DNA from: Patescibacteria group bacterium
GTDB lineage: Bacteria > Patescibacteriota > Patescibacteriia > PEXW01
Direction: 5' to 3'
DNA length: 64,000 nt
Assembly: GCA_041665345.1 (NCBI GenBank)
Contig: JBAYJA010000004.1
Span: 48,122-112,121, forward strand
Below are positions 17,621 to 44,553 of the stretch, in pieces. The notes beneath the pieces were generated by a model. The model did not search any database and was not told the DNA's origin. It saw only the letters and a program-made list of their open reading frames with translations. Positions within the stretch are counted from its first letter, which is position 1, and each line of letters opens with the position of its first letter. Both the position numbers and the translations under genes were made by a program.

Positions 17621-17950
17621 TCGAGTTCGGTAGGTCACTTGCACCCGTTGGTGCTGCCGCGTTTGTAACTCATGCCGCATTGCCCGTTGGAAACTGTGCG
17701 TGCGGGCACGGTACACCTTTCGCGCTGACTGGGGAGCTCCGGCAACCGATGACTTTTTTGCAACTACAGTTTTCTGTCGAATCACCCCGCGTTTTGCAAC
17801 AACTCGACGACCTCTGAGTCCAAGTGGACGCGACTTTAGGTACGTCGTTGTGCTTTGCGGTTTGGGCATGGAGGAACGTTTTGTTCGCCGAACGAAGCAC
17901 TTGGCCTTCCGTGTCTTTATACAAGAATCCAATGTATATTATGCCACATT

Positions 17951-18845: not shown

Positions 18846-21767
18846 ATGGCACATGCACATGCCTCAGCACTTCGTCATCAGTCAAAAGCATCTGTACCTC
18901 GGTTTAGTGCTTTTTTGGTCATTATTCCTGCTGCCTTAGTTGTCTCCGGATTACTCTTCTCCCTTCCCCACTTGCAAGCCGGTGGAGCAGGCTTGAGTTT
19001 TCTTGGCTTCAAAAAACCAGCGCCTAGCCAAAAGTACGTCTGCCCCAGTGCCTCCTATACAAAGGACTTTACTAGTGTCTTGAAAAATGGAGTGCCAGCC
19101 AGTTCCGCACAAACCGTAGTGGAAACCAATGCGCGGTTACTGGGCCAAGCTGAGCCAAGTAAGGATCTCATTGCGAGCCGCACAGATCTCACTGCCCGGA
19201 AAACTGCACTCCTTGGTCTCATGGCAACCGCACCAGACAAAGCCTTAGCTGCAGTTTTGAGCCCAAATATTGGGGATGCGTACCAAACATGGACGACGAA
19301 CTGCGTGGAAGAACGCGTGACCGTGACGGGAAAAGTGACGGAATATGATTATACTGCGGCGAAAGGCATTGCTCCAAAAGGGCCCGATGCACTGTTCATG
19401 TTGCAAACTGTTTCTGGTAGCACTCTTGCGCTTCAACCAGCCAAAGCACTGCACACCGCCTTTCTTACAGGCGATACGCTAACCATTACCGGCTTTCAAC
19501 TTGATGACCGTATAGTTTTTGATGGTCGGTCTTCAGTGACAGTGGATCCATCCGGCCTGGGAACTGGCTACACTGTAGCGAAGGAGAAGACTAATCGTGA
19601 TGCAGTAACCGGCCCCCAAGAGACTATTGTACTGCTGGTGAATTTCCAAAATACACCTCAGCCGGCATATCCGGTTTCAACTATTGAAAACATCGTCTTC
19701 TCACAAATGAACAGCTACTACCAGCAGAATTCGTACAACAAAATTAGCATAGTTGGTGATGTGGAAAATTGGCGGACGATCCCGATGGACACGACCTGCG
19801 ATTTTGCCTCAACCATTGGGCCAGTGGTCCAAGCTTTTGATGCCGACGTTGACTTTCGTCAGTACGAACGGCTCGTGGTGTTTGCGCCGCTTGGACCCTC
19901 ATGCCCTTTCATTGGCATCAGCAGCGTTGGGCAAACCACGGTAGCGACGAATGATGGTCCGGTTGTTATGTCAACGTCCTACATCTTGTCCAATTACGCC
20001 GGCGTTGCGCTAACCGCGCACGAGTACGGCCATGGTTTGGGTCTGCACCATGCAAGTTTTTACAATTGCCCAAATACCCCCTACCAAGAAACTGGCTGCG
20101 ATATTACTGAGTACGGCAGTCCATACAGTACCATGGGTAATCATGCACTCTTTGGCTACTTCAACGCTCTGGAAAAAGATTTCCTTGGGTGGTTTGTACC
20201 ATCCAATATCGAGACGGTAACCGAAAGTGGCACCTATACCATAGATCACCTAGAAGTTGCATCAACCAATCTGAAGGCACTGAAGTTTCAGCGCTCAGCA
20301 AATGACTTTTTGTACGCTGAATACCGGCAACCAATTGGGCATGACACAGGATTTGGATCGACGAATGCCTATGACGGTGCGCTCCTCCACATTCGCGCAA
20401 ATACGGGCGTATCTGGCCCACAGGCGAACCGTTCTTTCTTGCTTGATGCTGCGCACCCACCAGTGTGGGGAAGCGCAAATGACGCAGCGTTGACCGTTGG
20501 ACAAACTTTTGTTGACCCCCTGACCAATACTTCTGTAAAGACAGTCGAAAAGGGCGACGGGGACGTAGACATCCAGGTGCAAATTGGCAAACATGACTTT
20601 ACCGCACCGCAAGTGAGTATTACATCGCCAGCTGAGGGCAGCACGGTGAGTGGCCAATTTACCGTCACTGTTGACGCACAAGATGCATCTGGAATCGAAA
20701 AAGTTGTGTTGCAGAACGGGTCACTGTTATTCCGATCTGAAATTGGCACTGACACGCAAGCCCCGTTTGCATTTAACGTCGACAGTTCCATGTTCCCAGC
20801 CGGGATCGCGACTCTCGTTGCAGTTGCCTATGATAAGTCTGGTGCGCCCTATGGAGTGGCAAATAACTCTGGGAGCAGTGGCTTCTTTACGGTGAATATC
20901 GTGGGTGGGGATGTAACTCCTCCGACCACCAGCATGACAGCTCCGCTGAACAATACCGCTGTACGAAATCTGGTCACCGTCAGTGCCCAAGCAGATGACA
21001 ACGGATTCATTAGCCAGCTGAAGCTCTTCGTGGATGGGGTACAGAAGTTCTTCCAATTTGGTGATGCCTCCAGCATCTCCGGGGTACTGGATTTAACCCA
21101 AGGGACGCACACCGCGTATTCGGTTGCAGTAGACCAAGCAGGATTAACGACGCAAAGCGCAACTTCAACTTTCGTCGTTGACAATACTGCCCCAACCGTC
21201 AGCCTGGTGGATCCTGCTCAAGGAGCTTCCGTTTCGGCCAGCATCGCACTCACCGCCACCGCTGCGGACAATGACGCTATTCAGAAAGTGGTCTTCGTTC
21301 GCGACTCTGGCACGGTCATTGGTGAAGATCCCACCGCGCCATACAGCGTTACCTGGGATACCTCACTTGTTCCTCCTGGGCCACACACCCTTGGAGCCGT
21401 GGCGTATGACCGCGCAGGGAATACCGCAACATCAAGCACGCACGCAATCACTGTGCAGGCCACTGCTACCTACGTCTGCGGGGATAGTGACAGCAACCAA
21501 ATAGTCACCATCTCCGACGCCGTCCACCTCATCAACTACATCTTCAGCGGTGGACCCGCCCCAAGCCCCTTGGTGGCAGCGGACGCCGACGGGAGTGGCG
21601 TAGTAACCATCTCCGACTCCGTCCACCTCATCAACTACATCTTCAGCGGTGGGCCGACACCAAGCTGCGTTACCAACCCACCCAGTGTGAAACTGGCACC
21701 GGATCCAACCGAAGGCCAAACCTTGCAGAGTTTCAAAGCTGCACACCCAGAGATTTTTAGCCAGTAA
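18846..21767 (+). CDS. Secreted zinc metalloprotease (HExxH) with Ig-like/BIG repeats and C-terminal dockerin module
   Basis: 973 aa. Signal-anchor LVIIPAALVVSGLLFSL. Zinc motif TAHEYGHGLGLHHA. Repeated Ig-like domains (FTAPQVSITSPAEGSTVSGQFTVTVDAQDASGIEKV...). C-terminal dockerin repeats GDSDSNQIVTISDAVHLINYIFSGG and ADADGSGVVTISDSVHLINYIFSGG. Confidence 0.7.
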   Translation: MAHAHASALRHQSKASVPRFSAFLVIIPAALVVSGLLFSLPHLQAGGAGLSFLGFKKPAPSQKYVCPSASYTKDFTSVLKNGVPASSAQTVVETNARLLGQAEPSKDLIASRTDLTARKTALLGLMATAPDKALAAVLSPNIGDAYQTWTTNCVEERVTVTGKVTEYDYTAAKGIAPKGPDALFMLQTVSGSTLALQPAKALHTAFLTGDTLTITGFQLDDRIVFDGRSSVTVDPSGLGTGYTVAKEKTNRDAVTGPQETIVLLVNFQNTPQPAYPVSTIENIVFSQMNSYYQQNSYNKISIVGDVENWRTIPMDTTCDFASTIGPVVQAFDADVDFRQYERLVVFAPLGPSCPFIGISSVGQTTVATNDGPVVMSTSYILSNYAGVALTAHEYGHGLGLHHASFYNCPNTPYQETGCDITEYGSPYSTMGNHALFGYFNALEKDFLGWFVPSNIETVTESGTYTIDHLEVASTNLKALKFQRSANDFLYAEYRQPIGHDTGFGSTNAYDGALLHIRANTGVSGPQANRSFLLDAAHPPVWGSANDAALTVGQTFVDPLTNTSVKTVEKGDGDVDIQVQIGKHDFTAPQVSITSPAEGSTVSGQFTVTVDAQDASGIEKVVLQNGSLLFRSEIGTDTQAPFAFNVDSSMFPAGIATLVAVAYDKSGAPYGVANNSGSSGFFTVNIVGGDVTPPTTSMTAPLNNTAVRNLVTVSAQADDNGFISQLKLFVDGVQKFFQFGDASSISGVLDLTQGTHTAYSVAVDQAGLTTQSATSTFVVDNTAPTVSLVDPAQGASVSASIALTATAADNDAIQKVVFVRDSGTVIGEDPTAPYSVTWDTSLVPPGPHTLGAVAYDRAGNTATSSTHAITVQATATYVCGDSDSNQIVTISDAVHLINYIFSGGPAPSPLVAADADGSGVVTISDSVHLINYIFSGGPTPSCVTNPPSVKLAPDPTEGQTLQSFKAAHPEIFSQ

Positions 21768-21858: not shown

Positions 21859-22701
21859 CTAGTCGATTTTCAGTGAACCAGGATTGACCCAGTGCTCCTC
21901 GGTAACGTAGCAAATTGCAAGCGGCACCGGAATGCCCGGGCGCGTGAACCAGAGAAGGAATGGTTCGTCGATGATGAGATCCGGCGGCTTTGGTGCGTGT
22001 GCAGAACCAAAGACCATGGTCCGAATGTGCACCTCACTCTTCACGTGTGCGCCAACGACATTGACCCGCAGCTTCGTCGTTTGCTTGGCTGAAGCAATGA
22101 TTGCTGGGTAGTTTTCCGCGCTCGTTGTGCTCATCTTCTCCAGCCAATCAATATTCGGTGCATCGTCCAATTTCACCATGGGAAATTGCACACCATCAAA
22201 CCCGAAGTACACTGCAGTAATTTCCTCCGTGTGGGTCAGTGTACGGACATATGCATCAAGCACGGTTCCACGCAGAGGGTGAGGAGCTTGCGTGATGAAC
22301 ACGCGATCGCCCGACTTCGTTTCCAGAATTGCTATGGGGTACGGATGCACTTTGGTTGTGTATATTGCAATGTGCTCATGTGCCAGCCGCACACCGGGGA
22401 ATTCTTTCATGGTACGCGACTGCACAATGGTTCGTTCGTCACCAACCTTCACCCATTGCACAGTGACGTCCAGCACACTTGTAGCATCCACTGCCACCAG
22501 ATTGTTATCCATCTTCTCCGTGGATACCGAAGCGGTTAGTTCTGGAATCTGGTCAAGGTGTGGCCGAAGTTCCGACAAATGCATCTCCAGGAATGCACGC
22601 TGCTCTGCATTCACCGGTGTCCACTGCTCGCCTGCACCAATGGCTTTTTCGGTTTCCACCAGCGCTTTTGCCACGGGTAGCAACGTTGAGGTTGCACTCA
22701 T
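21859..22701 (-). CDS. Hypothetical protein
   Basis: The track start is TTG. ATG at 22701 (MSATSTLLPVAKALVE...) has AAAGGAG 7 nt upstream. No confident family match; serpin-like C-terminal resemblance rejected. Confidence 0.45.
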   Translation of the reverse strand: MSATSTLLPVAKALVETEKAIGAGEQWTPVNAEQRAFLEMHLSELRPHLDQIPELTASVSTEKMDNNLVAVDATSVLDVTVQWVKVGDERTIVQSRTMKEFPGVRLAHEHIAIYTTKVHPYPIAILETKSGDRVFITQAPHPLRGTVLDAYVRTLTHTEEITAVYFGFDGVQFPMVKLDDAPNIDWLEKMSTTSAENYPAIIASAKQTTKLRVNVVGAHVKSEVHIRTMVFGSAHAPKPPDLIIDEPFLLWFTRPGIPVPLAICYVTEEHWVNPGSLKID

Positions 22702-22769
22702 ATTTTCTCCTTTCAAAGAGTTTTTCTTTCCACCACCTTACGTAGTGGAACCCTCACTGTCAATAGGGA

Positions 22770-22796
22770 AAGCCGTTCACAAATTGTGAACGGCTT
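22770..22796. terminator. Perfect 12-bp-stem hairpin between two minus-strand genes (terminator/attenuator candidate)
   Basis: aagccgttcaca-aat-tgtgaacggctt. Confidence 0.35.
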
Positions 22797-22802
22797 ATTT
22801 GT

Positions 22803-23525
22803 TTACTCGTGAAGAATGAACAGGTAATCTCCAGCATCCGGTATATCCTCTGGTTTCCAGATGCATGCACTCTGGACGGAACTGAAGTGTCGGTGGAAAA
22901 CTGGCTCCAGTTTGGCAAGTGAAGTCTTGTACTCCCAACCAAGAACATCACTTCGTATGATATCAACTGCAGCCTGGACAATATCCTCCGGTGGGTTCTT
23001 CTCCAGCACGGCCAGCAAAGTTTGATAGCCGAATGCGGCGGCATTGCGTTTCCGCTCACGCTCAGTTTTGTACGGGGCAATGAACCGATCAGCGCAGATT
23101 GCTGTCCCACCGGGTTTCAGGAACGTTTTCAATTTTGCGATGAACGACGCTTGATCCTTATACGGCAAGTGATGAATGCCGGCAGTGCATACGACATAGT
23201 CAAACCGCATTCCCATATTCCATTCTTGAGTGTCCCACGTCCGAACATCTGCTTGGGTGAAACGTATCCCTGGATTGTGCACCATGGCATATGGGATGTA
23301 GCGCCAATCACAATCCACACCATAAAGCTCCAAATCCGGGCGCTTCTTCTTCAAACGACCTAGTAACTGTCCGGGTCCACACATGAGATCCAAAATCGAA
23401 CCACGTTTTGGCGCTTTTTGTGAAATTAGGTGCAGCACATTTTGGATGAGTTGTCCCCAAGGGAAAAACTGCATTTCCCGTATATACACGTCGGGATCAG
23501 GAAGAAAAAAATCTTGGTTTTTCAT
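22803..23525 (-). CDS. Class I SAM-dependent methyltransferase
   Basis: Motif ILDLMCGPGQLL (GxGxG-type SAM motif I). Start trimmed to ATG 23525 (MKNQDFF...) with AAAGGAG 5 nt upstream. Confidence 0.6.
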   Translation of the reverse strand: MKNQDFFLPDPDVYIREMQFFPWGQLIQNVLHLISQKAPKRGSILDLMCGPGQLLGRLKKKRPDLELYGVDCDWRYIPYAMVHNPGIRFTQADVRTWDTQEWNMGMRFDYVVCTAGIHHLPYKDQASFIAKLKTFLKPGGTAICADRFIAPYKTERERKRNAAAFGYQTLLAVLEKNPPEDIVQAAVDIIRSDVLGWEYKTSLAKLEPVFHRHFSSVQSACIWKPEDIPDAGDYLFILHE

Positions 23526-23707
23526 AGAACTCCTTTCGTTTGTATGTATTTCCCACCACCTTACTCGGCGGTACATTACATGTCAAGGAAGGATAAATGC
23601 TACTTGCTTATATTCGTGTGACACATCCCTTTGGCCCATGGGTTTCAAAAAGCCTCTTATAGCTTTACGGCTTACAGCTTATGGCTTCCCCTTGGTATAC
23701 TTTCCCT

Positions 23708-24313
23708 ATGCGCCTTGTCTTTGCCACCCACAACCCTGGGAAAATTCCAGAAATGCAAGCTATCTTGGCTGGACTGCCTTTGACCGTGTGCAGCGCTGAT
23801 GATGCCGGCGTGCATGAGGATGTGGTGGAGGACGGACAGACATTTGCCGAAAATGCCTTGAAGAAGGCGAGGTTCGTGGCGAAGCAGAGCGGTGAGTGGG
23901 CGGTGGCGGATGATTCTGGTCTGTGCATTGCAGCCTTGGATGGAAAACCCGGCGTATATTCCGCGCGCTGGGCCGGAGAAAGTGTATCTGGTGATGCGCT
24001 GATTGCGTACACCTTAGCCGCACTCAAGACTGTTCCTGAAGGCAAACGCCAAGCTTGGTTTGAGTCCTGCGCCGCACTGGTTGCGCCTGATGGTCGAGAA
24101 TGGACGTTCAGTGGAAAAATTACTGGCATCATTCCACTCACCCCCCGAGGAACACCCAGACCCAAGCTACCCTACGATACCATCTTCATTCCTGACGGGC
24201 ATGGCCGAACGTTTGCAGAAATGTCGGACACGGAAAAGAATAGTCTCAGCCACCGGGGACAGGCGTTTGGGGAACTTCGGAAATTTCTTCAGGAAATATT
24301 TGAAAAGGCATAA
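23708..24313 (+). CDS. rdgB: Non-canonical purine NTP pyrophosphatase (RdgB/Ham1 family ITPase)
   Basis: MRLVFATHNPGKIPEMQAIL...DDSGLCIAALDGKPGVYSARWAG...SHRGQAF. The track start 23681 lies inside an intergenic GGCTTAC repeat, so the second ATG was chosen. Confidence 0.7.
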   Translation: MRLVFATHNPGKIPEMQAILAGLPLTVCSADDAGVHEDVVEDGQTFAENALKKARFVAKQSGEWAVADDSGLCIAALDGKPGVYSARWAGESVSGDALIAYTLAALKTVPEGKRQAWFESCAALVAPDGREWTFSGKITGIIPLTPRGTPRPKLPYDTIFIPDGHGRTFAEMSDTEKNSLSHRGQAFGELRKFLQEIFEKA

Positions 24314-24315
24314 CC

Positions 24316-25125
24316 ATGTCTACTGAAATCCACCCGGTTCTCCAGCACCTGCTGGCTCGCCGGGGCAAAACCGTGCCCGTGCAGGATGGGAGAAAAATTG
24401 CCCTGGTGCTGTACGGCGGCGCCATGGCTGGTATTGTCGGTGGTGGTGCAGTCCAAGCCTTGCACGAGCTTGGACTTGACCAGGCGTTTGATCATATTTT
24501 TGCAAACTCCGCTGGGTTTTGTAATGCTTCCTACTTTTTAGCAAACCAGGTTCGGTTAGGTATCACCATCTATTCAGAAAATCTGACGAGCAAACGTTTT
24601 ATTAATCTCTGGCGATTTTGGAAAATGGTTGACGTGGACTATGCCGTGGAAGTAATGCGAAACGTGAAGCCGCTCAAAGTTGAGCATATATTAGCCTCCG
24701 CTACAAAGTTACACGTGTCATTGTATAACCAAACCACGAAAAAAGACGCTTTCCTGGAAGTGCATGACCATCCGGCACATAGCTATTTCGATATTGTACA
24801 TGCGGCGACGGCCATTCATTTTTTTCATCCTGGTGCCACCCAAATTGACAGCCAACGGTATATGGATACCAAGATTGGCCAGGAAATTAACCGACTGCAG
24901 TACGCACGCGCACTTGGCTGTACGGATATCCTGATTATTTACAACCGAAAGGAAAATACCCCGGCAAAAGACCTGAATCAAAAGGATACCTTTGAAATTC
25001 GGCCTGATAGAGATTGGAATATTTCGCAGTTTGAGAGAAATCCTACAAAATTACTTGCGGCGTGTCGAGGTATGGGTCACAAAGTGAAAGTAACATTTGG
25101 TCTGGACAAACCAATTACTATTTAA
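24316..25125 (+). CDS. Patatin-like phospholipase, paralog 1
   Basis: LVLYGGAMAGIVGGGAVQ (oxyanion GGxxxG) and FANSAG (GxSxG-like nucleophile elbow). Paralogous to 38658..39569. Starts 2 nt after the rdgB stop. Confidence 0.6.
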   Translation: MSTEIHPVLQHLLARRGKTVPVQDGRKIALVLYGGAMAGIVGGGAVQALHELGLDQAFDHIFANSAGFCNASYFLANQVRLGITIYSENLTSKRFINLWRFWKMVDVDYAVEVMRNVKPLKVEHILASATKLHVSLYNQTTKKDAFLEVHDHPAHSYFDIVHAATAIHFFHPGATQIDSQRYMDTKIGQEINRLQYARALGCTDILIIYNRKENTPAKDLNQKDTFEIRPDRDWNISQFERNPTKLLAACRGMGHKVKVTFGLDKPITI

Positions 25126-25126
25126 T

Positions 25127-25489
25127 ATGACAAAGGTGGGATCATTTCATAATCGGGTGTTCGCTGCTGTCCGTCGCATTCCCTCAGGCAGGGTAGCAAC
25201 CTATGGACAGATTGCCGGGCTCATTGGCTCACCCCGCGCAGCACAGCAGGTAGGTTGGGCCTTGCATTTACTGGAAAAACGGCCTGACCCCACTGTTCCC
25301 TGGCAGCGGGTCATCAACCGGCATGGCATGCTGTCCATTGTGAACCTACGCTACGCGGCCGATGAACAGGCCAATCTGCTCCAGGCCGAAGGGGTTGTGG
25401 TAAGCAAGAAAGACGACGTTTGGTTTGTTGATTTGGAAAAGTACCTGTGGGAACCAAAAGAAAACCCACGCTCGGTTGAACGTGGGTAA
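25127..25489 (+). CDS. Alkyltransferase-like protein (ATL; Ogt/MGMT DNA-binding domain with Trp replacing the catalytic Cys)
   Basis: MTKVGSFHNRVFAAVRRIPSGRVATYGQIAG...VPWQRVINRHG: PWQRV in place of PCHRV. ATG at 25127 lies 2 nt after the patatin stop; the track start 25097 is a non-ATG extension. Confidence 0.55.
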   Translation: MTKVGSFHNRVFAAVRRIPSGRVATYGQIAGLIGSPRAAQQVGWALHLLEKRPDPTVPWQRVINRHGMLSIVNLRYAADEQANLLQAEGVVVSKKDDVWFVDLEKYLWEPKENPRSVERG

Positions 25490-25604
25490 AGGCGCTACTT
25501 TCCTTTGGATTGATTTTTGGGTTTGCCCTTCTTCACTGGTTGGGGGTTTTTAGGCAATCCCGCTGAGCCTGTATTTGCACCAGCCACATAACCTCCTTTC
25601 TGGG

Positions 25605-26759
25605 TTAGGCGAGGATAGATGAAAAGATGTGTTTTTCTTTTACTAGTGCCTGCACGCCAAAGTGCATTTGCCAATTTTGGACGCCGTTTTGGTAGAGAAC
25701 ACGGAAAGAACTTCCTGAGTGGATTTGCGCATTCGTGTATGGTCTGACGTTTTGACCAAACCGTGACGTTCCACGTTGGAGCTCAGTCAGGGTAAATGCA
25801 ATCGCGTATGGCGCGCGGTACGTGGCATCAGCATCAATAACAAAGGTCTCGGTTGGACTGACGGATTGGGGGTAGAAAGTAACTTCCACACCCTCAAGGA
25901 CAAATTGTATTGCGCCTGGCGCAACGATTGCCTGCTCAACTGCGGAACAAAACCTAGCCTTTCCAACAACCTGCGCAAGTTTGGCAATATCCTCAGCCAC
26001 GTAGATTCGAAAGTGGATGGGCCGAAGTGTGTTAGCCGCAACAATTTGCTGCCAGGCAATGTTGAACTCGTGCTGATTCAATGCGAACAGTGCAATTTTA
26101 GGTCGGGCAGGGGTTAAGGTGGTAACGTGCCATTCGCCTACTTGATGCGGGAGTGCGTTTTCCGTAGCCAAAATACTTGCATAATTCAGTTTGGTTACGG
26201 TGAAAAGCGAGTGTACCCGGCCATTTGGCTGGAGGTAGGTTTGCGCCTCCGCAATCCCTCGCATTGCCTGTGCATACGATTTTGCATTTCCCCGTTGGAG
26301 ATTGTGAATCTGCTCAGGACCGTCCAGAGAAATGTCCAGCCAGTCAAAAGCAAACCCAGACGTATGCAAACTTCGGTCATGCACGAGGTATGAACCATTA
26401 TCAATCATGCCAATCTTGATGTCTGGTCGGGCTTTCCGAACAGCCAGCAGCCAGGCGAGATGCTGCGGACGGAAGATCCTGCCTTCATGGACAAGGCAGG
26501 CACCCTCTGGCATCTGCTGGGCAATATGGAGGACTACTACATCCAGGTCAGAACAATGTGACATTTTGTCAGAAGACGTCTCTGCTTGAAAAATGCAGTG
26601 TTTACATTGGAGGTTGCAGGTTCTTTCCGCTACAACAGAGAGAATATGCGGGGGCTCCTGCGCAAGTGCAGCGTACATATTTTCAATGAGCCATTTATCC
26701 TGGCTATTCTCCACAACCAGAGCGTACCAGAGATCAATTGATGTGTATTTTTGTTGCAT
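25605..26759 (-). CDS. Radical SAM domain protein
   Basis: CNLQCKHC = CxxxCxxC cluster near the N-terminus. 384 aa. Confidence 0.55.
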   Translation of the reverse strand: MQQKYTSIDLWYALVVENSQDKWLIENMYAALAQEPPHILSVVAERTCNLQCKHCIFQAETSSDKMSHCSDLDVVVLHIAQQMPEGACLVHEGRIFRPQHLAWLLAVRKARPDIKIGMIDNGSYLVHDRSLHTSGFAFDWLDISLDGPEQIHNLQRGNAKSYAQAMRGIAEAQTYLQPNGRVHSLFTVTKLNYASILATENALPHQVGEWHVTTLTPARPKIALFALNQHEFNIAWQQIVAANTLRPIHFRIYVAEDIAKLAQVVGKARFCSAVEQAIVAPGAIQFVLEGVEVTFYPQSVSPTETFVIDADATYRAPYAIAFTLTELQRGTSRFGQNVRPYTNAQIHSGSSFRVLYQNGVQNWQMHFGVQALVKEKHIFSSILA

Positions 26760-26931
26760 GTTTTTTGCTCCACTCTTTTTTTGTCCGCTCAGTATCTCTC
26801 AAATATGAATGTTGTCAATTAATATATCTAATATATTGTCATAAATACCAATAAATAATAGGTATTATTAAAAGTATTGGATAGTTGTCAGAAGTATTGA
26901 CAGATTAATCAATTTTCACTATCCTCTACTT

Positions 26932-27663
26932 ATGGAAAAAATCTTAGAAAGCTTAATGAATATTGGACTCAACCGGAAAGAAGCGCAGGTGTACTACGCC
27001 CTGCTACAGCTGGGGCAAAGCTCTGCGCAAGCAGTAGCCCAAAAGGCAGGTCTGAAGCGACCAACAACCTACCTTATCCTGGGTGAGCTCATGCAACGCA
27101 GCCTGGTATTGAAGGTGCCCAAACTCCGGAAGCAAATGTTCATTGCAAAATCACCGCGTGCGTTTGTGGCAGCAGCCGAAGAAAGACTCCAAGCCACCAA
27201 AGCCATGCTCCCCGCCTTGGAAGCAGCAACGAAAGCGCAGGAAAAGGTCCGAACCTTGTACTTCGAAGGTGTGTCCGGCATTCGTGAAGCATTGTTCTAC
27301 CGAATACCTGAATTTGCAGGTACAGAAATCAATGCCTTTTTTGGCAACTCCAAAGCAGCTTCAGACGCCTTAAACCAGGTTTTCCATGAATGGAATGCAA
27401 AAGTGTTTCAGGTAGGTGCAACCATTCGATCTATTGTCCCAAAAGCTCCCTTTCTGGAACAATTCCGGAAGCAGGATACAGCATATAACTTCCTTTCAAA
27501 AATTGTTCCGCCTGATCTCTATACCTCACGATGTTCCATTGACATCACTCCATTCTTCGTTCGGGTCATTCTCTTCAAGGAGGAGCAGGCAGTGATCATT
27601 GAAAGTCCTGATGCGGCAAGAGCAATGAAAGAAATTTTTGAGATGGTGTACCGTCAGGAGTAG
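26932..27663 (+). CDS. TrmB-family transcriptional regulator, paralog 1
   Basis: N-terminal wHTH MEKILESLMNIGLNRKEAQVYYALLQLGQSSAQAVAQKAGLKRPTTYLILGEL. Confidence 0.6.
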   Translation: MEKILESLMNIGLNRKEAQVYYALLQLGQSSAQAVAQKAGLKRPTTYLILGELMQRSLVLKVPKLRKQMFIAKSPRAFVAAAEERLQATKAMLPALEAATKAQEKVRTLYFEGVSGIREALFYRIPEFAGTEINAFFGNSKAASDALNQVFHEWNAKVFQVGATIRSIVPKAPFLEQFRKQDTAYNFLSKIVPPDLYTSRCSIDITPFFVRVILFKEEQAVIIESPDAARAMKEIFEMVYRQE

Positions 27664-27747
27664 AAAATATTGAGATCTGCCAACATGTGCAAGGTATAGA
27701 CATGAAGCAATATTTATGGAAAGCTACCTGAAGTAGCGTCACATTTT

Positions 27748-27821
27748 GCGGGCATCGTATAATGGTAATACCTCAGCTTTCCAAGCTGATGCCGGGGGTT
27801 CGATTCCCCCTGCCCGCTCCA
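27748..27821 (+). tRNA. tRNA-Gly (anticodon UCC), CCA encoded
   Basis: GCGGGCATCGTATAATGGTAATACCTCAGCTTTCCAAGCTGATGCCGGGGGTTCGATTCCCCCTGCCCGCTCCA folds as a cloverleaf with a 7-bp acceptor stem, anticodon loop TTTCCAA (anticodon TCC) and a T-arm GGGGG-TTCGATT-CCCCC. Confidence 0.8.
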
Positions 27822-28085
27822 TGAACCACTCGCTGCGCTCGGGTTCATGGCAAGCCAGCATTTAGTGATTCAGGCCAACTCGTTTCGCACGTCAAACTCC
27901 ATATGACGCGGTTTTGCCGCATCCACTTTGGCCTGCCTCTTGGCCGGAGGCTGAGCGAAGCTCCCGCACCAGTTCATTTCAATCCGGTACGGGGCAGACT
28001 CGTTTTACCCTGGAAGGACTTGACATTCTTTCTCTTTTTGCTAAGCTGGGCGATAAACAAAATCTTTACAAGGAAGGGGTTACCC

Positions 28086-28763
28086 ATGCAATTTTCACGA
28101 TGGAGAAAAGCGCGCCTACACCAAGAGCCGACCTCAGCAGTATCTGCACTACCACTGCCAAAACTGCTGCAGCTATATAAGTCGGAGCACGACTACCTAC
28201 AGAGCCTTGGCAAGCACCGGGATGAATTTCTCACGGATGCGGACTACAAACGCATTGGGTTCATAGAAGCTCAGCTCCAGGAGCTTCTGCCGGATCCGCT
28301 GCAGTACCTGGTTACTCAGGAATGTGTTCTCCACGGCATGCATCCAGATAACTTCGTGGATCCGAACCACTGGCGCACTGCGCTCCAGGAAACCGTGCGG
28401 GCAATTGTCCACTTTCTGCACTACGGTGAGCCATACCCAGTAGTGTCAGAGCCGCCGCGGCTCTACTTCCCAGGCGATGTCTTTCTGCTGTGGTTGCTCC
28501 AGGAAGCAAAAGCTGGCACTGCTGGAGATGCGAAAGCCAACATGGCAGCTGCCTTGGAGCAAGTTGTCACATCTGGATCCATTCTTGGCAGGCCGTTCAC
28601 GCCAAAAACGGCAAATGACTTTGGTGGGCGTATCATTCTCCTCTTCTATGGTGACTACACTGAAGGACTTAGCATGCTCATTGCTATCTACAGTGCAAGC
28701 GAAGCTGGCGAGCAGCTCATCCGAGAAATAGTAGGCTGCTACAAACTCGCTCCGATCCCCTAA
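28086..28763 (+). CDS. Hypothetical protein
   Basis: ATG at 28086 (MQFSRWRKARL...) has GGAAGGGG upstream. The track's 5' extension would overlap the tRNA flank. Confidence 0.4.
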   Translation: MQFSRWRKARLHQEPTSAVSALPLPKLLQLYKSEHDYLQSLGKHRDEFLTDADYKRIGFIEAQLQELLPDPLQYLVTQECVLHGMHPDNFVDPNHWRTALQETVRAIVHFLHYGEPYPVVSEPPRLYFPGDVFLLWLLQEAKAGTAGDAKANMAAALEQVVTSGSILGRPFTPKTANDFGGRIILLFYGDYTEGLSMLIAIYSASEAGEQLIREIVGCYKLAPIP

Positions 28764-31327: not shown

Positions 31328-31343
31328 ATGGGGATAGTATAGC

Positions 31344-32096: not shown

Positions 32097-32276
32097 ATGT
32101 TTAATATGTATACTTGCCGACGATTTCGTCAACAACTATGCTTATTTTTTAGCGAATATTAGCGATTTTTATGGTTGCACTATGTATATATTCTATACTA
32201 TTGACACTTTTTTGTAAAGCCATATACTACGCTATTAAAGAAAATTGATCATTAAAAATTTGAAAAGGAGTTTGAA

Positions 32277-38657: not shown

Positions 38658-39569
38658 CTACTGCAAAAACGCCCGCAGCGCTTCGTTCTGCAACGTATCA
38701 TTGTACCCCCGGGTAAAAACTGTATTTGCATTTGCATTGTCGATATCCCATGGGGCCATATTGAGGTTGGTCTTTGGGATCAAATACGTAAGCGCCACAT
38801 TTGGTGGGGGCACAAAATGCGCTATCTGTTGGATGTAGGCCAGCTGATTTTTACGGAACGTTTTGTTCCGTACCTTGGCTAAAAATTTGCTAAAGAGTAA
38901 ATTGCCCCTATTATCCTCAGCATGCCAACTATCAAAGATAAGAATTTTGGTTGCACCTTCCTGTATAGCTTTCGCAACATGCGGTTGGTAACTGGCTGAT
39001 GCAGTTGAGTCTGAGTAGTCTTTCCCGTTGATGGTTACCCCTTGGATATGAAAAAGGTTAGTGAAGAAGGGTACTGACTTTGCCGCCCGGAGCACTTCCC
39101 AGGTGTCAACAGCATCGGTGTTGGAAAAGTATTCCAGTTGGCCCGTTTTGGAATTGGTCAAAGGGAATAGTATCTTTATTGGCGAGGTGGCAACCTTCGC
39201 CATATCCAAAGGGTTATCTTTTTTTAAAACTGTATCAATTAAGTAATCAATGTCCACAACTTTCCAAAATCGCAAAAAATTTACAAATTTCTTGGTGGAG
39301 AGTGCTTTGCACCAGACATTTTTTATTGTCTCGTGTTGCCCAGTGACGTAGCACAAACTTGTTGCCGCGCTACCCGAGCATGCAATGATGATGTCTGGCT
39401 GTATTGGGTGTAATTGACACACCGCGTACAGAGAACCTGCGGTGTAGACAGTCCGAGCGGCTCCCCCGGCCAGAATCCAGGCAATTTTTTCTTTGGGTTG
39501 TTCTGACTCGTTCATGGTTGCGAAAAATGTATTATCTACCTTTAGCGAAGGAGGAAATGCAGTCCACAT
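38658..39569 (-). CDS. Patatin-like phospholipase, paralog 2
   Basis: IAWILAGGAARTVYTAGSLYAV and IIACSGSAAT align with paralog 1 (24316..25125), including the shared block NFLRFWKVVDIDYLID versus NLWRFWKMVDVDYAVE. GGTGAGGG ribosome-binding site before ATG 39569. Confidence 0.6.
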   Translation of the reverse strand: MWTAFPPSLKVDNTFFATMNESEQPKEKIAWILAGGAARTVYTAGSLYAVCQLHPIQPDIIIACSGSAATSLCYVTGQHETIKNVWCKALSTKKFVNFLRFWKVVDIDYLIDTVLKKDNPLDMAKVATSPIKILFPLTNSKTGQLEYFSNTDAVDTWEVLRAAKSVPFFTNLFHIQGVTINGKDYSDSTASASYQPHVAKAIQEGATKILIFDSWHAEDNRGNLLFSKFLAKVRNKTFRKNQLAYIQQIAHFVPPPNVALTYLIPKTNLNMAPWDIDNANANTVFTRGYNDTLQNEALRAFLQ

Positions 39570-39768
39570 ACCCTCACCTCGCCAAGCCGAGGCATGCCTG
39601 CCCGCCGTACTCCGAGTGAAACTCGGAGGCAGGTGGGAAAGCCTCGGCTACCCTCCTTGGTTCAAAAAACTTACTCTGATGCATCTACACCGCAGCTTAG
39701 AGAAGCTGCTGCTGGGTTTTTTGGTCTTGGCTTACGGCCTACGGCTTACCGGCTTATGGCTTCCCCCC

Positions 39769-41220
39769 TCAGTTCTTCGGTCTCTCATCCACTACCCGCT
39801 TCTCCTTCAATTCGCTCTCCATGCCAATCATGCGGAGCACATCAGCGAGATCGCTCTTGCGGATACGGACGGAGACCCCGGTTTCGTTCAGCACGCTACG
39901 GTGAATGGTGTGTTCTAAGGCGCTGAAGTCCGCATGTGGCTTGGGCGCAACGTGGAGCACGAGCTCATCCACTTCAAAAGGATCGTCGTTCACTTTGCGG
40001 ATTTGGAGCTGCCACTCGTCTACGTCCGGCATGCCGGAGAGCAACGGGTAGAAAGCATTCAGATCCACCAACTCGCCCTTCACCTTGGTGAGGTTGAATT
40101 CTTTAATGTCGGAATTGCGGCGAATGTCTTTGCGGATCCTGGGCACGGTGCGGCCGCAGTGGGGACAGGGGCCGCGGTCAATCCCCTGCACCAAGTCACC
40201 TGTGCGGTAGCGCACCATCACTGTCCCACGCCAACCCAAGCTGGTAATTGCAAGTTCACCGGGTTGGCCATCCGGCACGCGATTGCCCTGCGCATCCACC
40301 ACCTCAAAGAATTCTTGGTCTGGGTAGGTGTGGTAGCCAGTTTCTTCACTGCACTGCACCCAAGCGGCCTTCCCTTCGGTGAGTGCGTACGTCGCAAAAA
40401 TCTTGGCCTCACCCGCGCCAACCTCCCGAAGCAGATCCTTCACTTTCGCCCGAAGTGCATCGCTTACTCGCTCACCGCCAAAGACAATGTACTGCAGGTT
40501 GGACCAATTTTTCTTCTGCGCCACGGCCTCCCGGAGAATGTGGTAGAAGTACCCAGGAATAGCAGTAACGACCTTGGCTTTCAGACGTTCAATGGCGTCA
40601 ATAATTTTCTGCGTACCCATCACTTTACCCCCACCGCTCTGGAGCGTCGTGAGCTGCAGGGACGAAGTGGCGTAGAAGGTTAGCCAAAAGGCCAGGTGTG
40701 GCGCGTATGGAAACGCATTCACCACCACCGCATCACCAGGAATGCCCATGGTGTTGAACAGCCGGTACGCGGATTCTTTCAGCGTGAGTAAATCTTTGGT
40801 GGTGTAGCCAACAACCGTGGGCAAAGCAGTGCGACCAGTGGTGAAGTGTAGGTGGGTGGGTTTGTACTCCCATTCCAACTTCTTCTTCACATCCTTTCCC
40901 AAAATTTTCTTCGCTACAATCCCCAAGAGTTTCCCTTTACTGGCGTACTGCTTCAGCAGGTGCTCATCTGGCTGCAGCATGAAGCCGCGGGGCCGGGCTG
41001 GGTCTTCCGCGGTTGGAGCAAGGTCAGCCTTGCTGGTGAAAGGCACTTTTTGTAAATCATCCGTGGATTGGATGTCAGCGAACCGAACATTGTGGTCGGC
41101 AAAGTGTTTGCGGAAAAACGGACTGTAGGGCAGTTCGTGACGGAAAAATGTGCGGAGCGCTCGGTTCTGGAGCGCGGCTATTTCTTCAGGGGCAAGGTGG
41201 TCCAGGGTGTGCCAATCCAT
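39769..41220 (-). CDS. Adenylate-forming enzyme, phenylacetate-CoA ligase (PaaK)/coenzyme F390 synthetase-like
   Basis: 483 aa. N-terminal ...NRALRTFFRHELPYSPFFRKHFADHNV..., then TSGTTGKP-like and ...YALTEG blocks of the PaaK/ANL superfamily. Confidence 0.6.
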   Translation of the reverse strand: MDWHTLDHLAPEEIAALQNRALRTFFRHELPYSPFFRKHFADHNVRFADIQSTDDLQKVPFTSKADLAPTAEDPARPRGFMLQPDEHLLKQYASKGKLLGIVAKKILGKDVKKKLEWEYKPTHLHFTTGRTALPTVVGYTTKDLLTLKESAYRLFNTMGIPGDAVVVNAFPYAPHLAFWLTFYATSSLQLTTLQSGGGKVMGTQKIIDAIERLKAKVVTAIPGYFYHILREAVAQKKNWSNLQYIVFGGERVSDALRAKVKDLLREVGAGEAKIFATYALTEGKAAWVQCSEETGYHTYPDQEFFEVVDAQGNRVPDGQPGELAITSLGWRGTVMVRYRTGDLVQGIDRGPCPHCGRTVPRIRKDIRRNSDIKEFNLTKVKGELVDLNAFYPLLSGMPDVDEWQLQIRKVNDDPFEVDELVLHVAPKPHADFSALEHTIHRSVLNETGVSVRIRKSDLADVLRMIGMESELKEKRVVDERPKN

Positions 41221-41256
41221 AAGCGTATGGGTTAAAGAGCGCCCAGCATTGCTGCT

Positions 41257-41904
41257 TTAAGCGGGCGACGGGAACGGGGAAGGCCGGTTGGAAAGCTGGC
41301 CAATTGGATCCATGATGGCACGCGTGGTCTGAATGAGCAACTCCTTGGTGATCTGCTCGTCCGGGGTTTTGGGGAAACGCAACGGGGCGCCAATACGGAG
41401 CGTCATATCTTTCCGGGGGGTAAGGAAGGCACGGAGTCCTTGATTAAATGACCACGTTGCCGGACCTTGAAAGCCAAAAGGAACCACGGGTGCCCCAGAC
41501 CACAAGGCTAATCTGGCAACTCCAGTTTTTCCGGGTAAAACGAAAGGGGCAGAGTTCCGCATGCCTTCGGGGAATATACCCACAGGGTTTCCGGCGGCTA
41601 ATTCACGTCGCAGCTCCACTAAGCAGGCATCGGGCGCTGCTTCATTTTTTTCTACCAAATGCACCCAGCGTCGCGCAAATTTCTTCCCCAGCATGTGGGT
41701 AATGATATCCATGGCCACGAAGGTAATGGGCCGCCGGACGTGGCTGTACACTTCAGCAAAAATGAACGCTGGATCGGCTGATCCAACGTGATTGCCAGCA
41801 AGAATAAAAGGTCCAGAGCGTGGGAGATGCTCTGTTCCCAGAACTTCCCGAAACCGCCAACGCGCAATGGGGATGAGCCAGTGCAGGCCAAGGTAGGATT
41901 TCAT
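41257..41904 (-). CDS. Lysophospholipid acyltransferase (PlsC/LPLAT family)
   Basis: AGNHVGSADP (HX4D-type motif) and FPEGMRN block. The start ATG overlaps the upstream stop as ATGA. Confidence 0.6.
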   Translation of the reverse strand: MKSYLGLHWLIPIARWRFREVLGTEHLPRSGPFILAGNHVGSADPAFIFAEVYSHVRRPITFVAMDIITHMLGKKFARRWVHLVEKNEAAPDACLVELRRELAAGNPVGIFPEGMRNSAPFVLPGKTGVARLALWSGAPVVPFGFQGPATWSFNQGLRAFLTPRKDMTLRIGAPLRFPKTPDEQITKELLIQTTRAIMDPIGQLSNRPSPFPSPA

Positions 41905-42527
41905 CCAACGTATGTTTTGCTAGCGAGGGTTGCCACAGGAGTCATGATAGCACGCATGACAGTGTCCAGGAGCGGCCGGTCTATTGTTCGGTTGTGAAAC
42001 TCTTGTAGATTGATTGCAGAACCAATGGCAATGCGAACCTTGCCAAAAAACATATCTTGGAAGTGCTCACGTTCGGTCTGTGCTGGGGGCGTTGTTCGCT
42101 GCAAACCAACGGGGAAGACAGGCACCTTCGTTTGGAGCGCCAAACGTGCAGCACCAGTTTTCACTTTGGCAATGGTCGGTAATGGATTCACCTTTGCCTC
42201 CGGGTAGATAAGGACAAGTTCACCAGCCTCCAGGTACTGCTGCGCCAGGTGGAGTGTTTGCTGCGGGTCAGCGGCTAATGGAATCGTTTCCAGCCAGGGA
42301 TGCAGGGGCCAGGTTTCAAAAATTTTCCACTTGGTAATGGCATGCACTTTCCGGCCACCGGTAGCCAGGATGACCGCGGTCATGAGCAAGATGGGATCTT
42401 GCAGACCCACGTGGTTGGCCACGAACAAGGCCGGACCGGATTTGGGAATTGTACCCAAACCCTCCGCCGACGCTATACGCCGGCGGAGGAGTGGTCCAAA
42501 GATGTGTCTGGAAAATGCGTAGGCCAT
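41901..42527 (-). CDS. Lysophospholipid acyltransferase (PlsC/LPLAT family), second copy
   Basis: VANHVGLQDP (HX4D) and YPEAKVN block. Confidence 0.6.
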   Translation of the reverse strand: MAYAFSRHIFGPLLRRRIASAEGLGTIPKSGPALFVANHVGLQDPILLMTAVILATGGRKVHAITKWKIFETWPLHPWLETIPLAADPQQTLHLAQQYLEAGELVLIYPEAKVNPLPTIAKVKTGAARLALQTKVPVFPVGLQRTTPPAQTEREHFQDMFFGKVRIAIGSAINLQEFHNRTIDRPLLDTVMRAIMTPVATLASKTYVG

Positions 42528-42546
42528 GGTTGGCCTGTGACCAGGA

Positions 42547-44553
<2,007 letters not shown>

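What the first reader, a model, noticed from the sequence alone, without database searches (positions are those of the whole stretch)
23708..26759. Tightly coupled rdgB - patatin - ATL operon with a convergent radical SAM gene
An ITPase that removes deaminated purine NTPs, a patatin-like phospholipase and an alkyltransferase-like protein are separated by only 2-nt gaps (stop 24311-24313, ATG 24316; stop 25123-25125, ATG 25127), implying co-translation. The ATL has lost the acceptor Cys (PWQRV), which in characterised ATLs makes it a damage sensor that recruits other repair machinery. A lipase embedded between two nucleic-acid-sanitation proteins is an unusual combination. Patatin-like lipases are also known effector modules of defence systems (inference).
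Basis: partly seen in the sequence, partly recalled or inferred. Interest (0 to 1): 0.5.

Follow-up and report, generated by a model that had tools for sequence, protein, structure and literature searches.

The report
Housekeeping operon with a lipid-salvage lipase
Three tightly packed genes in a tiny-genome (Patescibacteria/CPR) bacterium are a nucleotide-cleaning enzyme, a small lipase and a DNA-damage sensor. The lipase most likely recycles scavenged membrane lipids, it is not part of an immune system, and its position beside the two DNA-care genes is a habit of one lineage.

Summary
rdgB (23708-24313), a patatin-like lipase (24316-25125) and a Cys-less alkyltransferase-like gene (ATL, 25127-25489, motif PWQRV) lie head to tail, with spacers of 2 nt and 1 nt. 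A radical SAM gene (25605-26759) converges on them. The genome is a Patescibacteria/CPR MAG.

- **Block in relatives:** rdgB...patatin-ATL recurs in one subclade (L001, L002, L007). Its content varies: an unknown gene is inserted in two relatives, the patatin is missing in L012, and rdgB is missing in L030.
- **Most persistent link:** patatin-ATL, with junctions from -14 to +2 nt in five loci. The ATL-linked patatins form one clade in 70/100 NJ bootstraps, which fits a single origin.
- **Patatin elsewhere:** in eight loci, members of the same family sit among lipid-handling genes (fused or split acyl-activating enzyme and acyltransferase, holo-ACP synthase, α/β-hydrolases, other patatins). The window has its own such cluster, with a second patatin, at 38658-42527.
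- **Defence:** nothing supports it. There are no PADLOC hits, no cyclase gene among the annotated neighbours, and no viral relatives.

Best reading: a co-transcribed operon of functionally separate maintenance genes, in which the patatin is a cytoplasmic acyl-hydrolase for lipid salvage. One oddity: Gln replaces the ATL's arginine finger.

The parts
23708..24313 (+). rdgB: RdgB/HAM1 non-canonical purine NTP (ITP/XTP) pyrophosphatase, first gene of the unit. An in-frame ATG at 23681 is an alternative start.
   Evidence: Pfam Ham1p_like 3.3e-56 over the full profile. TIGR00042 scores 155.6 bits, above the curated 145.35. The motifs ATHNPGK, DDSGL and SHRG are readable in the translation. The L001 orthologue starts at the equivalent MRLVFATHNPGK.
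24316..25125 (+). Short (269 aa) divergent patatin-like acyl-hydrolase, 'Pat1'. The predicted Ser65-Asp184 dyad lies in A-N-S-A-G and D-T-K contexts, and the glycine-rich loop is GGAMAG. No N-terminal signal peptide is visible by eye.
   Evidence: PF01734 38.6 bits, above the GA of 27.7. S65, D184 and G34/G35 are invariant or nearly so in 30 homologues. The AF2 model has pLDDT 93.4. Foldseek top hits are all patatin-fold lipases. A profile alignment puts S65 on the GTSMG serine and D184 on the DGG Asp of PlpD.
25127..25489 (+). ATL: alkyltransferase-like protein, a stand-alone AGT C-terminal domain. Trp59 replaces the acceptor Cys and Gln40 sits at the arginine-finger position.
   Evidence: PF01035 2.3e-22. 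Best solved relatives are Atl1 (3gva, 7.4e-18) and vpAtl (2kif, 3e-16), with PWQRV aligned to PWHRV, PWFRV and PCHRV.
25464..25487 (-). GC-rich hairpin followed by a T-run on the minus strand, inside the 3' end of ATL. It is a candidate terminator for the convergent radical SAM gene.
   Evidence: Terminator-like site from a consensus scan only. Such sites were no more frequent here than in shuffled sequence.
25605..26759 (-). Convergent neighbour, not part of the unit: an orphan radical SAM protein (CxxxCxxC = CNLQCKHC, no Cys-rich SPASM tail), transcribed divergently from the TrmB gene.
   Evidence: Weak PF04055 hit. All NCBIfam hits are far below their cutoffs. 65 homologues were found; the few that carry a source name are mostly CPR and are called 'radical SAM protein' or 'hypothetical'. 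It lies next to ATL only in the window and L002.
26932..27663 (+). Neighbour: a TrmB-family HTH regulator, divergent partner of the radical SAM gene.
   Evidence: PF01978 5.5e-12. The rSAM-TrmB pair is conserved in L002, where TrmB is 78% identical.
38658..42527 (-). Context used for the interpretation: the window's own lipid-handling cluster. It holds two PlsC-type acyltransferases (41901-42527, 41257-41904), an AMP-binding acyl-activating enzyme (39769-41220) and a second patatin, 'Pat2' (38658-39569, 28% identical to Pat1).
   Evidence: Pfam hits. The cluster is syntenic with L014, where a Pat1-family member (46% identical) occupies the patatin slot.

Best explanation
The three genes form one co-transcribed, probably translationally coupled operon in a compact Patescibacteria (CPR) genome. 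Their products work separately.

- **RdgB** hydrolyses ITP, dITP and XTP so that deaminated purines are not incorporated.
- **The ATL** is the CPR version of the Cys-less damage sensor. Characterised ATLs bind O6-alkylguanine and hand it to nucleotide excision repair. Here the arginine finger is Gln, so binding may be altered.
- **The patatin** is a cytoplasmic Ser-Asp acyl-hydrolase (phospholipase A or lysophospholipase type). It belongs to a family whose source names, where any are given, are all CPR (Patescibacteria, Paceibacterota, Doudnabacteria). Its job is to release acyl chains from acquired phospholipids so that acyl-activating enzymes and acyltransferases can re-use them. CPR bacteria are reported to lack complete lipid biosynthesis pathways.

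A Pat1-type gene came to lie directly upstream of ATL once, in the ancestor of one subclade, and the pair has been inherited since. Its position between rdgB and ATL reflects operon packing in a reduced genome, not a shared pathway.

**Shown:** gene identities, active-site conservation, tight junctions, the distribution of gene orders.
**Inferred:** co-transcription, lipase substrate and role, absence of a functional link.
For: - **Identities:**
- **Organism:** the exact protein is annotated in a 'Patescibacteria group bacterium' MAG on a 1.08-Mb contig.
- **Tight junctions in every relative:** rdgB to the next gene is +1 to +3 nt, and patatin to ATL is -14 to +2 nt.
- **Variable content of the block:**
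  - L002: rdgB-unk261-pat-ATL
  - L007: rdgB-unk332-pat-ATL
  - L012: rdgB-unk332-ATL, no patatin, and otherwise the same gene order as L007
  - L030/L031: pat-ATL without rdgB, in wholly different flanks
- **Overlapping flank synteny:** transketolase and a 118-126-aa gene lie upstream in L002, L007 and L012. rSAM-TrmB lies downstream in the window and L002. T2SSE/F lies downstream in L007 and L012. This fits ordinary vertical inheritance.
- **Eight loci place Pat1-family members among lipid genes:**
  - L003, L015, L023: pat-ACPS-[AMP-binding+acyltransferase]
  - L005, L006, L020: the fused AMP-binding/acyltransferase enzyme and an α/β-hydrolase upstream of pat, a second patatin downstream, then an EEP-family gene in L005 and L006
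  - L014: acyltransferase-AMP-binding-pat-CarS-like/cytidylyltransferase
  - L024: pat-α/β-hydrolase
- **L014 and L009 are the same 179,855-bp contig.** There the patatin and ATL are about 26 kb apart.
- **Single origin:** ATL-linked patatins form one clade that excludes all other known-context members in 70/100 NJ bootstraps.
- **Composition:** Pat1 GC is 46.2%, against 54.0% for rdgB and 54.5% for ATL.
- **Literature:** CPR lack complete lipid synthesis and are enriched in lysolipids, and phospholipase A is named as one route by which lysolipids form (PMC7242380).
Against: - The patatin-ATL adjacency survives complete turnover of both flanks (L030 against the window) and patatin divergence down to 46%. 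That is more persistence than random packing would predict, so a functional or regulatory link between these two genes is not excluded.
- The lipid role rests on guilt by association in other lineages. The ATL-linked subclade could have taken on a new function.
- No enzyme assay, transcript data or substrate information exists.
- The low GC is shared by Pat2, so it may be a family trait and not a sign of insertion.
Confidence: 0.6

Rival explanations
1. The patatin and the ATL form a genuine two-component module, with rdgB a frequent third gene. One version is a damage-control operon in which the lipase removes damaged acyl chains while ATL and RdgB deal with damaged DNA and nucleotides. Another has the DNA-bound or ligand-bound ATL regulating the lipase.
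For: The pat-ATL junction is tight (-14 to +2 nt) in five distinct loci. The pair persists where both flanks are entirely different (L030/L031) and across patatin divergence to 46-52% identity. The window ATL has Gln at the arginine-finger position, as do 14 of 33 aligned sequences, which hints at a non-canonical binding mode.
Against: The ATL-linked patatins form a single clade, so there is one event and no convergence. L012 keeps rdgB-unk332-ATL without the patatin. ATL homologues at 51-58% identity stand alone. One related genome has both genes about 26 kb apart. The Gln variant also occurs in ATLs with no adjacent patatin: P0107 in L009, and P0074 in L012.
Confidence: 0.15
2. The locus is an anti-phage defence system with the patatin as a membrane-destroying effector, as CapV/CapE are in CBASS. 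ATL and/or RdgB would sense modified phage DNA or nucleotides.
For: The best Foldseek PDB hits include CapE and CapV (E about 2e-8, TM 0.60-0.66). The patatin shows presence/absence variation between close relatives (L007 against L012) and evolves faster than its neighbours.
Against: No PADLOC model matches the patatin, ATL or RdgB. No CD-NTase or other signal-generating gene is among the annotated neighbours. Structural similarity to PlpD and plant patatin is equally strong, at 12-17% identity. No relative was found on viral contigs. Elsewhere the family sits in lipid-metabolism or housekeeping neighbourhoods. ATL is a widespread single-copy-type CPR gene, with 873 hits at E<=1e-10.
Confidence: 0.04
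3. The patatin is an offensive enzyme that the episymbiont uses to attack the host-cell membrane. It would work outside the cell, not as an internal remodelling enzyme.
For: CPR bacteria are thought to obtain lipids from host cells (PMC7242380). Patatin-fold toxins such as ExoU and VipD are among the structural matches. The window also encodes large surface proteins with cohesin and dockerin domains.
Against: No signal peptide or transmembrane segment is visible at the N-terminus (MSTEIHPVLQHLLARRGKTVPVQDGRK, by inspection). No secretion gene is coupled to it. In other lineages it is adjacent to cytoplasmic acyl-activation and acyl-transfer enzymes.
Confidence: 0.1

Closest known systems
RdgB / HAM1 / ITPA non-canonical purine NTP pyrophosphatases (TIGR00042, PF01725)
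   Same: Full-length match above the curated equivalog cutoff. The conserved motifs are readable in the sequence (ATHNPGK, DDSGL, SHRG).
   Different: Nothing notable. In E. coli (from my own knowledge) rdgB is followed by the radical SAM gene hemW. Here the nearby radical SAM gene is convergent and is not HemW-like.
Alkyltransferase-like proteins: S. pombe Atl1 (3gva), V. parahaemolyticus vpAtl (2kif), E. coli ATL/YbaZ
   Same: Stand-alone AGT C-terminal domain of about 110-120 aa. It has the HTH, the conserved Tyr, and P-W-x-R-V with Trp replacing the acceptor Cys. Best solved matches are at 7e-18 and 3e-16.
   Different: The position of the arginine finger (Atl1 R39, hAGT R128) is Gln40. 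The motif is PWQRV, not PWHRV. The gene is translationally coupled to an upstream lipase gene.
Bacterial patatin-like phospholipases (PF01734): PlpD, CapV/CapE, ExoU/VipD, plant patatin Pat17
   Same: Patatin fold (Foldseek probability 1.0). There is a Ser-Asp dyad at the expected positions and a glycine-rich loop after strand 1.
   Different: Only 269 aa. The nucleophile elbow is x-x-S-x-G (ANSAG) without the first Gly. The Asp is in D-T-K, not D-G-G/A. The loop GGAMAG has no basic residue. Identity to any solved structure is 12-17%. There is no β-barrel, cyclic-nucleotide-sensing or toxin domain. No NCBIfam model matches.
Aas-type lysophospholipid re-acylation (acyl-ACP synthetase / 2-acyl-GPE acyltransferase) and PlsC-type remodelling
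   Same: In other CPR lineages Pat1-family genes are adjacent to fused AMP-binding(+PP-binding)+acyltransferase proteins and to holo-ACP synthase. Together with the lipase these are the ingredients of a deacylation/re-acylation cycle.
   Different: In this window those partners are about 13 kb away (38658-42527) with a different patatin paralogue. No biochemical evidence exists for any CPR member.

Membership tests
RdgB/HAM1 ITPase | Full-length Ham1p_like domain scoring above curated family cutoffs | tested here: met
   PF01725 190.6 bits (GA 22.5). TIGR00042 155.6 bits (cutoff 145.35)..
RdgB/HAM1 ITPase | ITP/XTP pyrophosphatase activity | not testable with these tools
   Needs an enzyme assay.
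Alkyltransferase-like (ATL) proteins | Only the AGT C-terminal (DNA_binding_1) domain, no N-terminal AGT domain | tested here: met
   120 aa. PF01035 covers residues 7-90. The match to Atl1 covers residues 4-112.
Alkyltransferase-like (ATL) proteins | Acceptor Cys of PCHRV replaced, usually by Trp | tested here: met
   PWQRV aligns to PWHRV (Atl1), PWFRV (vpAtl) and PCHRV (Ada-C). Trp in 33/33 aligned sequences.
Alkyltransferase-like (ATL) proteins | Conserved Tyr supporting base flipping (Atl1 Y25) | tested here: met
   Y26 is invariant, 33/33.
Alkyltransferase-like (ATL) proteins | Arginine finger in the HTH recognition helix (Atl1 R39, hAGT R128). The review PMC10779285 describes it as conserved in AGTs and ATLs. 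| tested here: not met
   Gln40 aligns to Atl1 R39 and to the Ada-C Arg. Across 33 aligned sequences this column is R in 19 and Q in 14. R37, three residues upstream, is nearly invariant.
Alkyltransferase-like (ATL) proteins | Tight binding to O6-alkylguanine DNA and recruitment of NER | not testable with these tools
   Needs EMSA and genetics.
Patatin-like phospholipase (PF01734) | Pfam gathering score and patatin fold | tested here: met
   38.6 bits against 27.7. AF2 pLDDT 93.4. Top 28 Foldseek PDB hits (E<=0.001) are all patatin-fold/cPLA2-type lipases.
Patatin-like phospholipase (PF01734) | Ser-Asp catalytic dyad | tested here: met
   S65 and D184 are invariant in 30 homologues. They align to the PlpD GTSMG Ser and DGG Asp.
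Patatin-like phospholipase (PF01734) | Canonical G-x-S-x-G elbow, D-G-[AG], and G-G-G-x-[RK]-G oxyanion loop | tested here: not met
   The elbow is A-N-S-A-G, and the first position varies across the family. The Asp context is D-T-K. The loop is G-G-A-M-A-G with no basic residue.
CBASS patatin effectors (CapV/CapE) | Match to defence-system HMMs for the effector | tested here: not met
   No PADLOC family at E<=0.01 for the patatin.
CBASS patatin effectors (CapV/CapE) | Adjacent CD-NTase (cyclic oligonucleotide synthase) gene | tested here: not met
   Annotated neighbours from 21859 to 29559 are: an unknown 285-aa gene, a methyltransferase, RdgB, ATL, rSAM, TrmB, an unknown 286-aa gene and an inositol monophosphatase. 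The two unknown genes have no family hit, so a very divergent cyclase is not formally excluded.

The most novel reading that the evidence does not exclude
The translationally coupled patatin-ATL pair is a functional unit specific to one CPR lineage. A Cys-less, arginine-finger-less 'ATL' would act as a ligand or damage sensor that controls or targets a lipase. That would link recognition of nucleic-acid damage (or foreign DNA) to membrane-lipid hydrolysis, a role not described for any ATL.
Probability: 0.1. Interest if true: 0.65.

Novelty: new member of a known kind. Interest (0 to 1): 0.27.

Why it matters
As an "unusual operon" the finding is mostly ordinary. It consists of three annotated housekeeping-type genes packed together in a reduced genome, and one lineage inherited that order.

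The useful by-product concerns CPR biology. A short, divergent patatin family, whose named members are all CPR, recurs next to acyl-activation and acyl-transfer genes. These bacteria are reported to lack complete lipid biosynthesis pathways and to be rich in lysolipids. The family is therefore a concrete candidate for the deacylation step of lipid salvage, and it could be tested biochemically.

The Gln-for-Arg change at the ATL base-flipping finger, seen in 14 of the 33 aligned sequences, is a small open question for the DNA-repair field.

Tried and rejected
- **Defence reading.** A PADLOC scan of the three proteins found nothing. A viral-contig scan with the patatin alignment found nothing. 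The only PADLOC hits were in neighbours and involved generic domains: weak pVip hits for the rSAM (26.6 bits) and a mad2 methyltransferase-domain hit for the gene at 22803-23576.
- **Viperin idea for the rSAM.** Rejected. Its best NCBIfam hit is 43 bits to an rSAM/SPASM family with a cutoff of 425, and viperin scores 21.8 bits against 180.
- **Inserted genes unk261 (L002) and unk332 (L007, L012).** No Pfam hit. The PDB sequence search found nothing for unk332 and only marginal partial hits for unk261 (best E 0.003).
- **Searches that failed or gave little.** The first metagenome scan with the 30-sequence alignment failed for lack of a conserved stretch and was repeated with 11 sequences. The genome-contig scan returned only one locus.
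- **Literature.** Searches for a described patatin-ATL or rdgB-ATL link, or for CPR patatins, found nothing specific.
- **Rfam.** Only a tRNA-Gly was found in the window.
- **Promoter and terminator scan.** No + strand signals within or directly upstream of the operon. This is uninformative for CPR promoters.
- **The 5005-bp Logan contig.** I tried to show that P0036 (patatin), P0064 (ATL) and P0184 (rSAM) lie on one 5005-bp Logan contig. All three give that contig length, but no accession is listed, so this stays unproven.
Full report
**1. What is in the sequence**

The ORF list and the raw sequence show three co-directional genes on the + strand.
- rdgB runs 23708-24313. An in-frame ATG at 23681 is an alternative start.
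- A 269-aa patatin-like gene runs 24316-25125.
- A 120-aa ATL gene runs 25127-25489.

The first junction is TAA(24311-24313)-cc-ATG(24316), a 2-nt spacer. A 384-aa radical SAM gene (25605-26759) converges from the minus strand after a 115-nt gap.

I built a crude gene set by choosing long non-overlapping ORFs greedily. In it, 8 of 32 same-strand neighbour pairs in the window are separated by <=5 nt or overlap, and the median is 80 nt. Tight junctions are therefore common here but not the rule. Two in a row, with no promoter-like or terminator-like site on the + strand inside the block, fit a single transcription unit.

**2. Gene identities**

*RdgB.* Pfam Ham1p_like scores 3.3e-56 over the whole profile, and TIGR00042 scores 155.6 bits against a curated cutoff of 145.35.

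*ATL.*
- PF01035 scores 2.3e-22. The closest solved proteins are the two structurally characterised ATLs, S. pombe Atl1 (3gva, 7.4e-18) and V. parahaemolyticus vpAtl (2kif, 3e-16). True alkyltransferases score far lower (Ada-C, 8e-6).
- The residue-level alignment puts PWQRV on PWHRV, PWFRV and PCHRV.
- I aligned the window ATL with 31 CPR homologues and Atl1 (33 sequences). Trp is invariant (33/33), and so is the base-flipping Tyr.
- One defining feature is not met. The arginine finger (Atl1 R39, hAGT R128) is Gln40 here. The review PMC10779285 describes this residue as conserved in AGTs and ATLs. Across the 33 sequences the column is R in 19 and Q in 14.

*Patatin.*
- PF01734 scores 38.6 bits (GA 27.7). 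No NCBIfam model matches.
- In 30 homologues S65, D184 and G34/G35 are invariant or nearly so.
- The AlphaFold2 model is confident (pLDDT 93.4, pTM 0.92).
- Its best PDB matches are all patatin-fold lipases: CapE, PlpD, CapV, plant patatin, VipD and iPLA2β, at 10-17% identity and TM 0.5-0.66.
- A family profile aligns S65 with the GTSMG serine and D184 with the DGG aspartate of PlpD.
- The motifs are non-canonical: A-N-S-A-G, D-T-K and G-G-A-M-A-G.
- No signal peptide is visible by eye.

**3. Organism**

The exact patatin, ATL and rSAM proteins are recorded from a 'Patescibacteria group bacterium' MAG on a 1,075,605-bp contig. This is a reduced CPR genome.

**4. Gene order in relatives**

| Locus | Identity to window (%) | Gene order |
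|---|---|---|
| L001 | RdgB 84, Pat 74, ATL 83 | rdgB-pat-ATL |
| L002 | RdgB 75, Pat 70, ATL 57 | transketolase(-), 126 aa(-), then rdgB-unk261-pat-ATL, then rSAM(-), TrmB |
| L007 | RdgB 69, Pat 46, ATL 70 | transketolase(-), 118 aa(-), then rdgB-unk332-pat-ATL, then HTH, T2SSE, T2SSF |
| L012 | ATL 67 | rdgB-unk332-ATL, no patatin; otherwise the gene order of L007 (unk332 84% identical between the two) |
| L030/L031 | Pat 52, ATL 63 | pat-ATL overlapping by 4 nt, no rdgB, unrelated flanks (OMP decarboxylase and Band_7 on one side, PadR and asparaginase on the other) |

ATL homologues at 51-58% identity (L009, L010, L032) have neither neighbour. L009 and L014 are the same 179,855-bp contig, and there the ATL and the Pat1-type patatin lie about 26 kb apart.

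All junctions inside the block are tight in every relative, from -14 to +5 nt.

The block nevertheless has a variable middle. The patatin is dispensable (L012) and so is rdgB (L030). Flank synteny overlaps between loci in the way ordinary vertical inheritance predicts. The most persistent element is the patatin-ATL pair.

**5. Where the patatin family lives otherwise**

I looked at Pat1-family members (>=37% identity) with informative flanks. Eight sit among lipid-handling genes.
- L003, L015 and L023 read pat, then holo-ACP synthase, then a fused AMP-binding/acyltransferase (Aas-like) protein.
- L005, L006 and L020 have that fused enzyme and an α/β-hydrolase upstream of the patatin and a second patatin downstream. 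An EEP-family gene follows in L005 and L006.
- L014 reads NusA, H+-PPase, acyltransferase, AMP-binding enzyme, pat, a CarS-like/cytidylyltransferase gene.
- L024 reads pat, α/β-hydrolase.

Two others, L004 and the P0022 locus, lie among translation and central-metabolism genes.

The window holds the counterpart of the L014 cluster on its minus strand: NusA 44593-45972, H+-PPase 42547-44553 (75% identical to L014), two acyltransferases 41257-42527 and an AMP-binding enzyme 39769-41220. The patatin slot there is taken by a different paralogue, Pat2 (38658-39569), which is 28% identical to Pat1.

**6. Phylogeny and composition**

In a neighbour-joining tree the ATL-linked patatins, together with two sequences of unknown context, form a clade that excludes every other known-context member in 70 of 100 bootstraps. 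Lipid-cluster members branch more deeply. This fits a single relocation or duplication that placed a Pat1-type gene upstream of ATL.

Pat1 has 46.2% GC, while rdgB has 54.0% and ATL 54.5%. Pat2 shows the same dip (45.1%), so this may be a family trait and not evidence of insertion. The patatin diverges faster than its neighbours: 46% identity in L007, where RdgB and ATL are 69-70%.

**7. Defence hypothesis**

- No PADLOC model matches RdgB, the patatin or the ATL.
- No nucleotide cyclase gene is among the annotated neighbours.
- The structural match to CapE and CapV is no better than to non-defence patatins.
- No relative occurs on IMG/VR viral contigs.
- ATL is a very common stand-alone CPR gene, with 873 hits at E<=1e-10.

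I regard the defence reading as very unlikely.

**8. The radical SAM gene**

It has CxxxCxxC and no Cys-rich SPASM tail. All curated family hits are far below their cutoffs. Only a few of its 65 homologues carry a source name. Most of those names are CPR, and the proteins are called "radical SAM protein" or "hypothetical". It lies next to ATL only in the window and L002, and probably in one 5-kb contig (unproven), always with its divergent TrmB partner. It is absent from L007, L012 and L030. It is a neighbour and not part of the unit.

**9. Proposed mechanism**

*Shown:*
- the gene identities
- a conserved Ser-Asp dyad
- tight junctions
- the distribution of gene orders

*From established knowledge of the families:*
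- RdgB removes (d)ITP and XTP.
- Characterised ATLs bind O6-alkylguanine and channel it to NER (PMC10779285).
- Patatins are Ser-Asp acyl-hydrolases.

*Inferred:*
- The three genes are co-transcribed but act independently.
- Pat1 is a cytoplasmic phospholipase A or lysophospholipase that frees acyl chains from acquired lipids. AMP-binding enzymes and acyltransferases would then re-activate and re-attach them.
- This fits the report that CPR lack complete lipid synthesis and are rich in lysolipids, with phospholipase A named as one route to lysolipids (PMC7242380).

The persistence of the pat-ATL pair through flank turnover is the one observation this does not fully explain. I give about 0.15 to a genuine functional coupling.

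**10. Novelty**

Public records of this MAG already call the patatin a patatin-like phospholipase, the ATL an MGMT family protein and the rSAM a radical SAM protein. RdgB matches a curated equivalog model above its cutoff. The arrangement is a lineage-specific operon, so I class it as a new member of known kinds.

Three points are modestly new:
- the recurrent link between a short CPR patatin family and acyl-salvage genes
- the conserved pat-ATL pair in one subclade
- the Gln variant of the ATL arginine finger

I found none of these described in the literature searches I ran.

Noticed in passing
window 38658-45972 (- strand): A lipid-handling cluster: two PlsC-type acyltransferases, an AMP-binding acyl-activating enzyme and a second patatin paralogue (Pat2, 303 aa), downstream of NusA and an H+-pyrophosphatase. 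It is syntenic with L014, where a Pat1-type patatin and a CarS-like/cytidylyltransferase gene sit instead of Pat2.
   Followed up: partly
window 25127-25489, residue 40 (about nt 25244-25246): The ATL arginine-finger position is Gln. Across 33 aligned sequences (32 CPR ATLs and Atl1) the column is R in 19 and Q in 14. An Arg three residues upstream (R37) is nearly invariant. The His of PCHRV is also Gln in 27/33.
   Followed up: partly
L030 3198-4330 and L031: A patatin (52% identical) and an ATL (63% identical) overlap by 4 nt, with no rdgB and with unrelated flanks. The pat-ATL pair outlives its surroundings.
   Followed up: partly
L007 2198-3196, L012 3003-4001, L002 4126-4911: Genes of unknown function (332 aa in L007 and L012, 261 aa in L002, unrelated to each other) are inserted between rdgB and the patatin or ATL. 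They have no Pfam hit and no significant PDB match.
   Followed up: partly
window 615-5207 (-) and 18846-21767 (+): Cohesin- and dockerin-domain proteins, including a 973-aa M12-like metallopeptidase with Big_7 repeats and a dockerin. This is cellulosome-type assembly modules in a CPR genome.
   Followed up: no
window 6656-17932 (-): A giant 3758-aa ORF with no significant Pfam domain.
   Followed up: no
window 29724-32135 (-): DUF218, an endonuclease IV-like gene (AP_endonuc_2) and a second TrmB-family regulator are packed with 4-nt and 41-nt overlaps. This is another DNA-repair gene in a mixed operon, which supports the view that operons here combine unrelated functions.
   Followed up: no
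window 46424-47038 (-): A truncated transposase/integrase (HTH_32 + rve core, 204 aa) beside the NusA end of the lipid cluster.
   Followed up: no
window 22803-23576 (-): A class I SAM methyltransferase divergent from rdgB. It matches the methyltransferase domain of PADLOC mad2 (8e-15). It is absent from the equivalent position in L001.
   Followed up: no
window 27748-27821 (+): tRNA-Gly(TCC), the only Rfam or ARAGORN hit in the window.
   Followed up: yes
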